From: Escherichia coli
GTDB lineage: Bacteria; Pseudomonadota; Gammaproteobacteria; Enterobacterales; Enterobacteriaceae
Strand: one strand, 5' to 3'
DNA: 64,000 nt
Assembly: GCF_965641715.1 (NCBI RefSeq)
Contig: NZ_OZ282453.1
This document shows, in pieces, positions 34,032 through 34,720 of this stretch (its first letter is position 1; each line of letters starts with the position of its first letter). Under the pieces are notes generated by a model that worked only from the letters and a program-made list of their open reading frames with translations, was not told where the DNA came from and did not search any database. The translations under genes and the position numbers were made by a program.

Positions 34032-34322
34032 TCACTGAGACACTATTAAAAGCGCGTTTTCCAGTCCGGCAAATGGATCTGATACGCCTTCTGTCTGCTC
34101 TTGTCCCCACTGAAGAAGCGCATCATTCAGTGGTACTTTGACACCCTGTGCACCGTAAACCGCAGAAACTATCTGGGCAGCCCGGATATCAGCCCGCTCG
34201 TCACCCAGCGGGCTGAACCTGTCAAATTCTGCCCACATCATGATTTCTGATGCGGACATTTCCCTGCGTAACTCTGACAATGTGCGCCCCATCCTGAGCG
34301 CCAGCATCATCAGAAAACGCAT
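34032..34322 (-). CDS. Tail assembly chaperone T segment (expressed as G-T fusion by -1 frameshift)
   Basis: 96-aa ORF in the -1 frame relative to G, beginning just after the G stop. Confidence 0.7.
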   Translation of the reverse strand: MRFLMMLALRMGRTLSELRREMSASEIMMWAEFDRFSPLGDERADIRAAQIVSAVYGAQGVKVPLNDALLQWGQEQTEGVSDPFAGLENALLIVSQ

Positions 34323-34333
34323 CCCCGGAAGCG

Positions 34334-34720
34334 CTACTTTTTTTTAACCTCGCCGGCATCACTGATCAGTTCCAGAGACTGCCGAAGAAGCCGCGCATGC
34401 ACCGGGCCATACACGGCAATCACCTGTTCACGATCATCCTCTGAAAATACAGGTTGCAGTCCGGTATCACACAGAACATCAATGAACAGTTCAACATCTG
34501 CCTCCAGATTTCGGCGGGCGCGCTCCGCTACGGATAACGGTGTCTCATCATCTTTTGCTTTAACGATCTCCTGCCAGCGCAACCAGGCTTCTGCAGAAGG
34601 TTCCCGTAACACAACCGTTGCTCCCTCCCATTCAGGCACATCAACGGTTTTATGGCGAAACCCCGACATCGTTGCCAGTGCCAGATTACGGATATTTTTA
34701 GTCATCACATCTATCCTCAT
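34334..34720 (-). CDS. Tail assembly chaperone G
   Basis: 128 aa ending ...AGEVKKK; lies between V and tape measure. Confidence 0.75.
   Translation of the reverse strand: MRIDVMTKNIRNLALATMSGFRHKTVDVPEWEGATVVLREPSAEAWLRWQEIVKAKDDETPLSVAERARRNLEADVELFIDVLCDTGLQPVFSEDDREQVIAVYGPVHARLLRQSLELISDAGEVKKK
34337..34345 (-). promoter_or_regulatory. Candidate -1 programmed frameshift slippery site A_AAA_AAG at the end of G
   Basis: Minus-strand reading GTT AAA AAA AAG TAG; the -1 frame continues into the T ORF (VALPGMRFLMM...). Confidence 0.5.

What the first reader, a model, noticed from the sequence alone, without database searches (positions are those of the whole stretch)
34322..34348. Conserved G/GT tail-chaperone frameshift site
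G ends ...GTT AAA AAA AAG TAG; the heptamer A AAA AAG is a canonical -1 slippery sequence and the -1 frame continues directly into the T ORF. This supports the tail-module annotation.
Basis: partly seen in the sequence, partly recalled or inferred. Interest (0 to 1): 0.25.

Follow-up and report, generated by a model that had tools for sequence, protein, structure and literature searches.

The report
Phage tail-chaperone G/GT frameshift site
This is the well-known programmed -1 frameshift site through which an HK97-like E. coli prophage makes a little G-T fusion protein alongside its tail-assembly chaperone G, so it is real and conserved but ordinary.

Summary
Gene G (34705..34334, 123 aa, Pfam Phage_TAC_1) ends GTT AAA AAA AAG TAG. 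The heptamer A AAA AAG (34343..34337) lies in a 13-nt stretch bounded by a -1-frame TAA and G's own TAG, the only place where a -1 shift gives a long product. That frame then runs 101 codons through a Phage_tail_T domain.

The locus sits between the major-tail and tape-measure genes of an HK97-like prophage found in about 900 of 5,426 complete E. coli genomes. The predicted 224-aa fusion aligns without gaps, at 64% identity, to HK97 gp14, which is annotated as a -1 frameshift product.

Homologues down to about 30% identity keep the same arrangement, with a shift-prone motif at the same alignment column. No conserved stimulatory RNA structure or SD-like element was found.

The best explanation is low-level (a few percent) -1 ribosomal slippage of tRNA-Lys. 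RNA-polymerase slippage on the A8 run could contribute a minor share, because an extra A gives the identical protein. RefSeq annotates G and T as separate genes, which is an annotation gap, not a novelty.

In passing, this copy's tape-measure gene carries an in-frame amber codon.

The parts
34334..34705 (-). Gene G, the tail assembly chaperone. It encodes 123 aa (MTKNIRNL...DAGEVKKK) and ends at stop TAG 34336..34334.
   Evidence: Pfam PF06222 Phage_TAC_1, E 2.4e-58, full length. phrog_344 tail assembly chaperone. PDB 2ob9 'Tail assembly chaperone', E 4.7e-49. PGAP calls the same start and end in the 99.9%-identical strain PEC422. The SD GAGGA lies 8 nt upstream of ATG 34705.
34337..34343 (-). 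Slippery heptamer A AAA AAG. In the zero frame the P-site codon is AAA (34342..34340) and the A-site codon is AAG (34339..34337).
   Evidence: Read directly from the sequence. It is in phase with G. It is invariant in 117 of 120 IMG/VR copies. The same heptamer occurs at the same alignment column in Stx2 phage 1717, Serratia OS31 and Burkholderia phi1026b, phiE125 and Bcep176.
34338..34345 (-). A8 homopolymer (T8 on the plus strand) that contains the heptamer. It is a possible secondary RNA-polymerase slippage tract.
   Evidence: An mRNA with A9 encodes exactly the GT protein.
34344..34346 (-). TAA stop in the -1 (T) frame immediately 5' of the shift site. It sets the upstream edge of the 13-nt productive window.
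   Evidence: Translation of the -1 frame and window analysis.
34032..34337 (-). T segment in the -1 frame, 101 codons (VALPGMRFLMMLALRMGRTL...LIVSQ) followed by TGA 34034..34032. Base 34337 is read twice.
   Evidence: Pfam PF06223 Phage_tail_T, E 4.5e-19. phrog_337 and phrog_14766. Conservation (invariant P4, M10, LALR.G.TL) begins upstream of the first ATG in most homologues.
34032..34705 (-). Predicted GT fusion, join(34705..34337, 34337..34032), 224 aa.
   Evidence: It is 64% identical to the reconstructed HK97 gp14 fusion over 224 of 224 residues with no gaps, straight across the junction. phrog_14766 is a 224-position fused profile that both halves match colinearly.
34720..35424 (-). Major tail (tube) protein gene with a C-terminal Ig-like domain. 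It lies immediately upstream of G.
   Evidence: phrog_158 major tail protein, E 1e-108. Pfam Ig_2 passes its cut-off, while the tail tube families match only weakly, below their cut-offs.
34001..34023 (-). Terminator-like hairpin (AACCGCTTCGGCGGTT plus a T9 run) between the T stop and the tape-measure start.
   Evidence: HK97 and HK446 carry annotated putative terminators just before their tape-measure genes.
30757..33990 (-). Tape-measure gene, the binding partner of G/GT. Its start is GTG 33984 or ATG 33990. In this copy it is interrupted by an in-frame TAG at 32166..32164.
   Evidence: PF20155 and PF06120, and phrog_339. PEC422 has CAG at the TAG position and an intact 1075-aa protein.

Best explanation
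This is the programmed -1 ribosomal frameshift site of an HK97-type tail assembly chaperone gene pair in an E. coli prophage.

Most ribosomes translate G (123 aa) and terminate at TAG 34336..34334. A few percent slip back one base while the two tRNA-Lys sit on AAA-AAG (34342..34337). They re-pair with AAA-AAA, read GTA next, and continue for 101 codons to make a 224-aa G-T fusion.

By analogy with lambda, the G part (in both G and GT) coats the tape-measure protein. The T part recruits the major tail protein, so the tube polymerises around the tape measure. Neither G nor GT ends up in the virion, and the fixed low GT:G ratio is the purpose of the frameshift.

What is shown here is the anatomy, the family assignments, the gene order and the conservation. 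What is inferred is the shift itself, its efficiency and the chaperone roles.
For: Anatomy:
- The heptamer is in phase at the last three codons of G.
- The productive window is only 13 nt, bounded by the -1-frame TAA and the zero-frame TAG.
- The -1 frame stays open for 101 codons.

Identity:
- G is PF06222 and T is PF06223.
- Both match the fused 224-position phrog_14766 colinearly.
- G matches PDB 2ob9.
- The gene order is tail completion, major tail, G, T, tape measure.

Homology to an annotated case:
- The predicted fusion is 64% identical to HK97 gp14 over all 224 residues with no gaps.
- HK97, HK446 and Bcep176 records carry the joined CDS. HK97's is noted 'translated due to a -1 frameshift'.

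Conservation:
- Nine homologues with 33-67% G identity, plus lambda, all have a -1 T ORF overlapping the end of G, with a shift-prone motif at the same alignment column.
- The motifs are A AAA AAG in four other lineages, G GGA AAG, G GAA AAG, A/G GCA AAG and A AAA AAC.
- The A-site 'A AAG' is kept in 17 of 18 distinct IMG/VR junctions.
- A8G is present in 117 of 120 copies of this lineage.

Against an independent T:
- T-domain conservation, including an invariant Pro, starts between the shift site and the first ATG in most homologues.
- That ATG has weak SD pairing (0.7 to -3.5 kcal/mol) in 7 of 8 homologues.

Literature:
- Lambda makes G and GT at about 30:1, and that ratio is crucial for tail assembly. 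G and the G part of GT bind the tape measure, and the T domain binds the major tail subunit (PMC5009743).
- E. coli's sole tRNA-Lys makes this shift site highly shift-prone (PMC5009743).
- Reporter assays on two genes of an HK97-like 'phage tail assembly chaperone' cluster gave 6-7% frameshifting (PMC3711429).
Against: - There is no direct expression data for this locus.
- No conserved stimulator was found. The consensus downstream structure is essentially nil (-0.25 kcal/mol, 3 pairs).
- The local hairpin (z = -2.0) starts 15 nt after the heptamer and overlaps conserved A-L-R-M-G-R codons.
- The only SD-like element (GAGG, 34351..34348) is 4 nt upstream and is not conserved.
- The A8 run could let RNA polymerase, rather than the ribosome, supply part of the shift.
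- This copy has a GGGGA 11-14 nt upstream of ATG 34310/34307 (-5.7 kcal/mol), so some free T cannot be excluded.
- The prophage's tape-measure gene carries an amber codon. In this genome the site may therefore no longer be under selection.
Confidence: 0.85

Rival explanations
1. The main route is transcriptional slippage. RNA polymerase stutters on the A8/T8 tract and adds one A. Ordinary translation of the A9 mRNA then yields GT with no ribosomal shift.
For: An A9 message encodes exactly the same protein (...DAGEVKKKVALPGMRF...) as a -1 ribosomal shift. Runs of more than 7 A have been implicated in programmed transcriptional realignment (PMC3711429). Some IS elements appear to use A8 (PMC1088944). 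Two relatives have A9 tracts at this position, L134 and Halomonas phage H4907.
Against: Efficient slippage by bacterial RNA polymerase is documented for runs of 9 A/T, and A8 is described as a 'non-slippery pattern' in E. coli genes (PMC1088944; PMC5009743). Most homologues keep the G/GT arrangement with motifs that have no long homopolymer: G GGA AAG, G GAA AAG, A GCA AAG and A6G. The mechanism at family level must therefore be translational. The heptamer phase is conserved, which is irrelevant to RNA polymerase.
Confidence: 0.1
2. There is no recoding. G and T are two separate proteins, as RefSeq annotates them, and T initiates at its own ATG (34322, or 34310 as PGAP chose).
For: PGAP and most phage records annotate two separate CDSs. 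The exact 92-aa T is deposited on 278 contigs, while the exact 224-aa fusion is absent from a 15-billion-protein collection. In the window a GGGGA lies upstream of ATG 34310/34307 (-5.7 kcal/mol). The Met at that position is invariant among the 8 aligned T segments.
Against: The GGGGA spacing is long (11-14 nt), and ATG 34322 has GGGG directly abutting it (-1.0 kcal/mol). In 7 of 8 homologues the equivalent ATG has little or no SD. T-frame amino-acid conservation, including an invariant Pro, extends upstream of that ATG to the shift site. Lambda has Leu at that position in the alignment. The -1 frame opens exactly at the slippery run in several lineages, which an independent gene has no reason to do. 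Separate annotation reflects gene callers that do not model slippage.
Confidence: 0.04
3. It is an accident or decay. Either the heptamer is a chance Lys-Lys-Lys run, or G and T are the halves of a once-continuous gene split by a frameshift mutation in a homopolymer.
For: Homopolymers are mutation-prone. About 2.5% of copies, 3 of the 120 IMG/VR junction loci, have A7, and so does strain ETEC1730. The prophage already carries a nonsense codon in its tape-measure gene.
Against: The out-of-frame arrangement holds in every lineage examined, from Burkholderia and Halomonas phages to lambda. No A9 or A6 in-frame GT copy was seen among 120 junctions. The A7 variants do not restore a fusion; they put G into the +1 frame with a 38-aa nonsense tail.
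Confidence: 0.01

Closest known systems
Bacteriophage HK97 gp13 / gp14 (NC_002167 HK97p12 / HK97p11), the tail assembly chaperone and its -1 frameshift extension
   Same: The G domain family (PF06222) and T domain family (PF06223) are the same. The lengths match (123+101 residues and a 224-aa fusion in both). The fusions are 64% identical with no gaps across the junction. The position between major tail and tape measure is the same, as are the flanking terminator-like hairpins. The shift falls at the same alignment column.
   Different: HK97's motif is the weaker CG G GAA AAG, and its G continues 5 codons past the shift. Here the motif is the canonical A AAA AAG inside an A8 run, with the G stop immediately after it. 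HK97 has an extra moron gene (gp15) between T and the tape-measure gene that is absent here.
Bacteriophage lambda G / G-T
   Same: [quoted passage not shown] The functional model (G:GT about 30:1, G binds H, T binds V) comes from lambda (PMC5009743).
   Different: Lambda G belongs to a different Pfam family (PF06894 Phage_TAC_2). Its heptamer is G GGA AAG, and G continues 6 codons after it. The T sequences are not detectably similar by pairwise BLASTP (E 0.23). Lambda T is 144 aa against 101 here.
E. coli dnaX gamma/tau frameshift site
   Same: The slippery heptamer A AAA AAG is identical and is read by the same single tRNA-Lys (PMC3711429; PMC5009743).
   Different: dnaX reaches about 50% efficiency using an upstream SD-like element and a downstream hairpin (PMC3711429). 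Neither is present or conserved here. In dnaX the shift truncates the product, whereas here it extends it.
Thermus thermophilus dnaX, Shigella mxiE/spa13 and IS-element transcriptional slippage sites
   Same: A homopolymeric A/T tract sits at an ORF overlap, and one extra templated-strand base in the mRNA fuses the two ORFs (PMC1088944; PMC5009743).
   Different: Those sites use 9 or more A/T. Here the tract is A8, and homologues keep the arrangement without any long run.

Membership tests
HK97-type tail assembly chaperone pair (gp13/gp14-like G/GT) | The upstream ORF is a Phage_TAC_1 (PF06222) chaperone. | tested here: met
   E 2.4e-58 over positions 1-123 of a 124-position profile. HK97 gp13 hits the same family at E 1.2e-60. 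PDB 2ob9, E 4.7e-49.
HK97-type tail assembly chaperone pair (gp13/gp14-like G/GT) | The downstream ORF is a Phage_tail_T (PF06223) domain in the -1 frame that overlaps the 3' end of G. | tested here: met
   E 4.5e-19. The -1 frame is open from 7 nt before the G stop for 101 codons after the shift.
HK97-type tail assembly chaperone pair (gp13/gp14-like G/GT) | The pair is located between the major tail protein gene and the tape-measure gene. | tested here: met
   Major tail 35424..34720, G, T, tape measure from about 33990. PGAP gives the same order in PEC422.
HK97-type tail assembly chaperone pair (gp13/gp14-like G/GT) | A shift-prone motif lies in phase inside the G/T overlap, at the conserved position. 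| tested here: met
   A AAA AAG at 34343..34337. It falls at the same alignment column as the motifs of 9 homologues.
HK97-type tail assembly chaperone pair (gp13/gp14-like G/GT) | A G-T fusion protein is actually produced at a low, fixed ratio to G. | not testable with these tools
   Only indirect support is available: 6-7% in reporter assays for two genes of an HK97-like chaperone cluster (PMC3711429). I could not establish which genes those were.
Lambda G/G-T (sensu stricto) | The G domain belongs to the lambda G family (PF06894 Phage_TAC_2). | tested here: not met
   The window G hits only PF06222, and lambda G hits only PF06894.
Lambda G/G-T (sensu stricto) | The T domain belongs to PF06223. 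| tested here: met
   Pairwise BLASTP to lambda T is not significant.
Lambda G/G-T (sensu stricto) | The slippery heptamer is G GGA AAG. | tested here: not met
   The heptamer here is A AAA AAG. G GGA AAG is found in the relatives HK542 and SW-37 and in lambda.
dnaX-type stimulated -1 frameshift cassette | The slippery heptamer is A AAA AAG. | tested here: met
dnaX-type stimulated -1 frameshift cassette | There is an upstream SD-like stimulator at the appropriate distance (about 10 nt, from my own knowledge of Larsen et al. 1994). | tested here: not met
   The only candidate is GAGG, 4 nt upstream (34351..34348). It is not conserved in homologues.
dnaX-type stimulated -1 frameshift cassette | A stable downstream stem-loop starts about 5-9 nt after the heptamer. 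| tested here: not met
   The nearest hairpin starts 15 nt downstream, with z = -2.0. The first 47 nt fold no better than shuffles, z = +0.6. There is no consensus structure across 13 homologues.
Programmed transcriptional slippage site | There is a homopolymeric A/T run of at least 9 (the efficient length for bacterial RNA polymerase). | tested here: not met
   The run is A8 in the window and in 117 of 120 relatives, and never A9G. The length threshold comes from PMC5009743 and PMC1088944.

The most novel reading that the evidence does not exclude
In this E. coli lineage the site has evolved into a dual-level recoding signal. The A8 tract feeds GT production both by RNA-polymerase stuttering (A9 transcripts) and by ribosomal -1 slippage, and the adjacent UAG slows decoding to boost P-site slippage. 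The GT:G ratio would then respond to transcription conditions as well as to translation. A related possibility is that the homopolymer acts as a mutational on/off switch for tail assembly, since A7 copies occur at about 2.5%.
Probability: 0.12. Interest if true: 0.35.

Novelty: already known. Interest (0 to 1): 0.1.

Why it matters
Scientifically this adds little. The conserved G/GT frameshift of long-tailed phages has been known since lambda (Levin et al. 1993) and its generalisation (Xu et al. 2004), and the HK97 family is annotated with it.

The practical value lies in annotation:
- The finding firmly anchors the tail module of this prophage.
- RefSeq/PGAP and most phage records for this very common E. 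coli prophage lineage (about 900 of 5,426 complete genomes) list G and a truncated 'T/DUF4035' as separate genes and omit the 224-aa GT product.
- Homopolymer miscalls (A7) at this site lead PGAP to flag G as a pseudogene.
- Proteomic confirmation of a fusion here could not by itself tell ribosomal from transcriptional slippage.

Tried and rejected
1. Downstream stimulatory RNA. Folding 87 nt after the heptamer gave a hairpin at 34321..34265 (z = -2.0). It starts 15 nt downstream, and its GCGCUC/GGGCGC core lies on the conserved A-L-R-M-G-R codons. RNAalifold on 13 homologues gave no consensus structure. I rejected it as a conserved stimulator.

2. Upstream SD-like stimulator. GAGG lies 4 nt upstream in the window. 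Other homologues have GAGGA or AGGA at varied distances or nothing at all, which tracks acidic Glu codons. It is not a conserved element.

3. A second frameshift site. The G GGA AAG at about 51600 (-), 4 codons before the stop of a 104-aa ORF, has a 709-codon -1 extension. It proved to be an ordinary ATGA start/stop overlap with a 707-aa gene that has its own ATG. Rejected.

4. My own initial reading that the A7 variants (ETEC1730, L101) hard-wire a GT fusion was wrong. A7 moves G into the +1 frame, and only A9 or A6 would fuse G to T.

5. The search for related loci with an alignment of G proteins failed because no stretch was conserved enough. An alignment of T segments worked.

6. NCBIfam has no model for G or T.

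7. The supplements of PMC3711429 did not reveal which chaperone genes were assayed. Wagner et al. 1990 (PMC331007) is not held.

8. No complete E. coli genome in the collection is identical to the window; the best are 99.8-99.9%. The source strain was not identified.

Full report
**Observation**

The genes in this part of the window run on the minus strand.

The 0-frame ORF is gene G. PGAP's start in a 99.9%-identical strain corresponds to ATG 34705, with a GAGGA 8 nt upstream. That gives 123 aa ending DAGEVKKK, with TAG at 34336..34334.

Translating the three frames shows that the -1 frame has a TAA at 34346..34344. It then reads AAA AAA GTA GCG CTT CCG GGG ATG CGT TTT... without a stop for 101 codons, to TGA at 34034..34032.

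A -1 shift is therefore productive only within the 13 nt TAAAAAAAAGTAG. That stretch is filled by the in-phase heptamer A AAA AAG, at 34343..34337.

**Is it more than chance?**

- AAAAAAG occurs 28 times in the window on both strands, against 14.9 +/- 4.0 expected.
- Only six of these are in phase in an ORF of at least 100 aa.
- Only one other in-phase copy, at 11728 (+), has a -1 extension of at least 100 codons past its ORF's stop. One search lists a 383-aa ORF (11110..12261, +) covering that position. I take the short ORF there to be spurious, but I did not check the frame.
- The -1 ORF at the finding is a recognised protein domain, and the site is conserved in distant relatives (see Conservation below).

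**What the genes are**

- G matches Pfam Phage_TAC_1 (PF06222) end to end at E 2.4e-58.
- The -1 ORF matches Phage_tail_T (PF06223) at E 4.5e-19.
- In PHROGs, G is 'tail assembly chaperone' (phrog_344). Both halves also match, colinearly, the 224-position phrog_14766, which is a profile of already-fused GT proteins.
- G matches the solved structure 2ob9, 'Tail assembly chaperone', at E 4.7e-49.
- Upstream lie HK97-gp10-like and gp17-like tail completion genes and a major tail protein with a C-terminal Ig-like domain.
- Downstream lies a tape-measure protein with TMP_3 and Phage_HK97_TLTM domains.

**Source**

- The DNA is 95-99.9% identical to a prophage module present in about 900 of 5,426 complete E. 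coli genomes, always on the chromosome. It also matches 11 deposited Escherichia phages, such as phi467 and Evi.
- RefSeq/PGAP annotates 'phage tail assembly chaperone' and a separate 92-aa 'phage tail assembly protein T / DUF4035' that starts at an internal Met (window 34310). No slippage is annotated.
- The exact 123-aa G and 92-aa T are in public protein collections on hundreds to thousands of contigs. The exact 224-aa fusion is absent.

**Conservation**

A protein-level search of phage genomes with G found 199 records from 100% down to about 29% identity. I fetched representatives plus HK97 and lambda and analysed each junction.

Every one has a T ORF of 80-144 codons in the -1 frame overlapping the end of G. 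Each has a shift-prone motif in phase at the same alignment column:

| Motif | Where found |
|---|---|
| A AAA AAG | window, Stx2 phage 1717, Serratia OS31, Burkholderia phi1026b, phiE125 and Bcep176 |
| G GGA AAG | HK542, Salmonella SW-37, lambda |
| G GAA AAG | HK97, HK446, SaltyDalty |
| A GCA AAG | Klebsiella ST13-OXA48phi12.4 |
| A AAA AAC within A9 | Halomonas H4907 |

Further points:

- In the window, in SW-37 and in the Klebsiella phage the productive window is only 13 nt. In Stx2 phage 1717 it is 28 nt.
- A wider IMG/VR sample, retrieved with a T-domain alignment, gave 18 distinct junctions. Seventeen keep the A-site 'A AAG', and the exception is an A9 run before TAG.
- Within this lineage, 82 of 83 close relatives and 117 of 120 IMG/VR copies have A8G.
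- HK97, HK446 and Bcep176 records carry the joined two-piece CDS. HK97's note reads 'translated due to a -1 frameshift'.
- The window's predicted fusion aligns to the HK97 fusion over 224 of 224 residues, at 64% identity with no gap, straight through the junction.

**Mechanism**

The best-supported model is -1 ribosomal slippage of the two tRNA-Lys from AAA-AAG to AAA-AAA. This gives ...GEVKKK|VALPGMRFLMM...

E. coli's single tRNA-Lys is what makes this heptamer highly shift-prone (PMC5009743).

I looked for stimulators and found none that is conserved:
- The only notable hairpin (34321..34265, z = -2.0) begins 15 nt downstream and sits on conserved codons.
- The first 47 nt after the heptamer fold no better than shuffles.
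- RNAalifold on 13 homologues gives a consensus energy of -0.25 kcal/mol.
- The GAGG 4 nt upstream is not conserved.

This matches a low-efficiency site. Lambda's G:GT ratio is about 30:1 and is crucial for assembly (PMC5009743). Two genes of an HK97-like chaperone cluster gave 6-7% in reporter assays (PMC3711429).

In several lineages, including this one, the 0-frame stop directly follows the heptamer. Slow termination may additionally favour P-site slippage. That is inference only.

The roles of the products come from lambda work cited in PMC5009743 and are transferred here by homology:
- G and the G part of GT bind the tape measure.
- The T part binds the major tail protein and nucleates tube polymerisation.
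- Neither product is in the virion.

**Rivals**

*(a) Transcriptional slippage.* The heptamer lies in an A8 run.

Efficient bacterial RNA-polymerase slippage is documented at 9 A/T, and A8 is treated as borderline. Most homologues keep the arrangement with no long homopolymer. I rate this a possible minor contributor and unlikely to be the main route.

*(b) Independent T.* The window has a GGGGA 11-14 nt upstream of ATG 34310/34307 (-5.7 kcal/mol). ATG 34322 has no usable SD.

In 7 of 8 homologues the equivalent Met has weak SD pairing (0.7 to -3.5 kcal/mol), against -2.9 to -6.6 for the G starts. T-frame conservation, including an invariant Pro, extends upstream of that Met to the shift site.

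*(c) Chance or decay.* This is excluded by the family-wide out-of-frame arrangement and by the absence of any in-frame (A9 or A6) copy among 120 junctions.

**A correction to my own working**

I first read the A7 variants (ETEC1730, where PGAP flags G as a pseudogene, and three IMG/VR contigs) as hard-wired GT fusions. Explicit translation shows that A7 puts G into the +1 frame with a 38-residue nonsense tail. Only A9 or A6 would fuse G to T.

ETEC1730 also has a 'frameshifted' tape-measure gene. Homopolymer sequencing error is therefore the likeliest cause of these variants.

**Comparison with known systems**

- The locus is a member of the HK97 gp13/gp14 type. All four features that can be tested from sequence are met.
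- It works like lambda G/GT, but it is not a strict member of lambda's family. Lambda G is PF06894 and its heptamer is G GGA AAG. Only the T domain family is shared, and pairwise similarity to lambda T is not significant.
- It shares the heptamer of E. coli dnaX but lacks dnaX's two stimulators.

**Verdict**

The phenomenon is already known, so interest is low. The useful by-products are an annotation correction (the missing GT product and the mis-started T) and the caveat about mechanism at an A8 tract.

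Noticed in passing
window 32164..32166 (minus strand), within the tape-measure gene 30757..33990: The tape-measure gene is interrupted by an in-frame amber codon, CAA TAG CGA. 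The 99.9%-identical prophage in E. coli PEC422 has CAG (Gln) there and an intact 1075-aa protein. This copy is therefore probably tail-defective, unless the host carries an amber suppressor or the base call is an error.
   Followed up: partly
window 34001..34023 and 35449..35463 (minus strand): Two terminator-like hairpins flank the tail genes. AACCGCTTCGGCGGTT plus T9 lies between the T stop and the tape-measure start. CCCGCCGCTGGCGGG plus a T-run lies between the gp17-like gene and the major tail gene. HK97 and HK446 carry annotated putative terminators at comparable positions. They may tune the high major-tail to low tape-measure expression ratio.
   Followed up: partly
L003 (E. coli ETEC1730) around 915; IMG/VR loci L180 (same contig as L101), L211, L269: About 2.5% of copies of this junction, 3 of the 120 IMG/VR loci, have A7 instead of A8, and so does strain ETEC1730. 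This throws G into the +1 frame with a 38-aa tail and leads PGAP to flag G as a pseudogene. These are probably homopolymer sequencing errors, because ETEC1730 also has a 'frameshifted' tape-measure gene. Real replication-slippage variants are not excluded.
   Followed up: partly
window 34032..34310 (minus strand) and public annotation: RefSeq/PGAP starts T at an internal Met (MMLALRMG..., 92 aa) and names it 'phage tail assembly protein T' or 'DUF4035 domain-containing protein'. The 224-aa GT fusion of this lineage is absent from a 15-billion-sequence protein collection. This is an annotation gap affecting about 900 complete E. coli genomes.
   Followed up: yes
window 51594..51600 (minus strand): A lambda-type heptamer, G GGA AAG, lies in phase 4 codons before the stop of a 104-aa ORF (51899..51585), whose -1 frame continues for 709 codons. 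The downstream 707-aa gene (51588..49465) has its own ATG in an ATGA overlap. This looks like ordinary translational coupling and a coincidental heptamer.
   Followed up: partly
window 34720..35424 (minus strand): The major tail protein carries a C-terminal Ig-like domain (Pfam Ig_2/Ig_3, with PHROG matches to Hoc-like decoration proteins). It is fused in frame, and PGAP names the whole protein only 'immunoglobulin domain-containing protein'.
   Followed up: no
window 60859..61012 (minus strand): Two adjacent tRNA genes, tRNA-Arg (UCU) and tRNA-Met (CAU), sit near the right end of the window. This arrangement is typical of lambdoid prophage late regions. I did not establish whether they belong to this prophage or to a neighbouring element.
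   Followed up: no
L134 (IMG/VR) junction; L091 (Halomonas phage H4907) junction: Two relatives have A9 tracts at the shift site: GTT AAA AAA AAA TAG, and GCA AAA AAA AAC TAA. These are long enough for efficient RNA-polymerase slippage, so individual lineages of this family may have moved toward transcriptional recoding.
   Followed up: no
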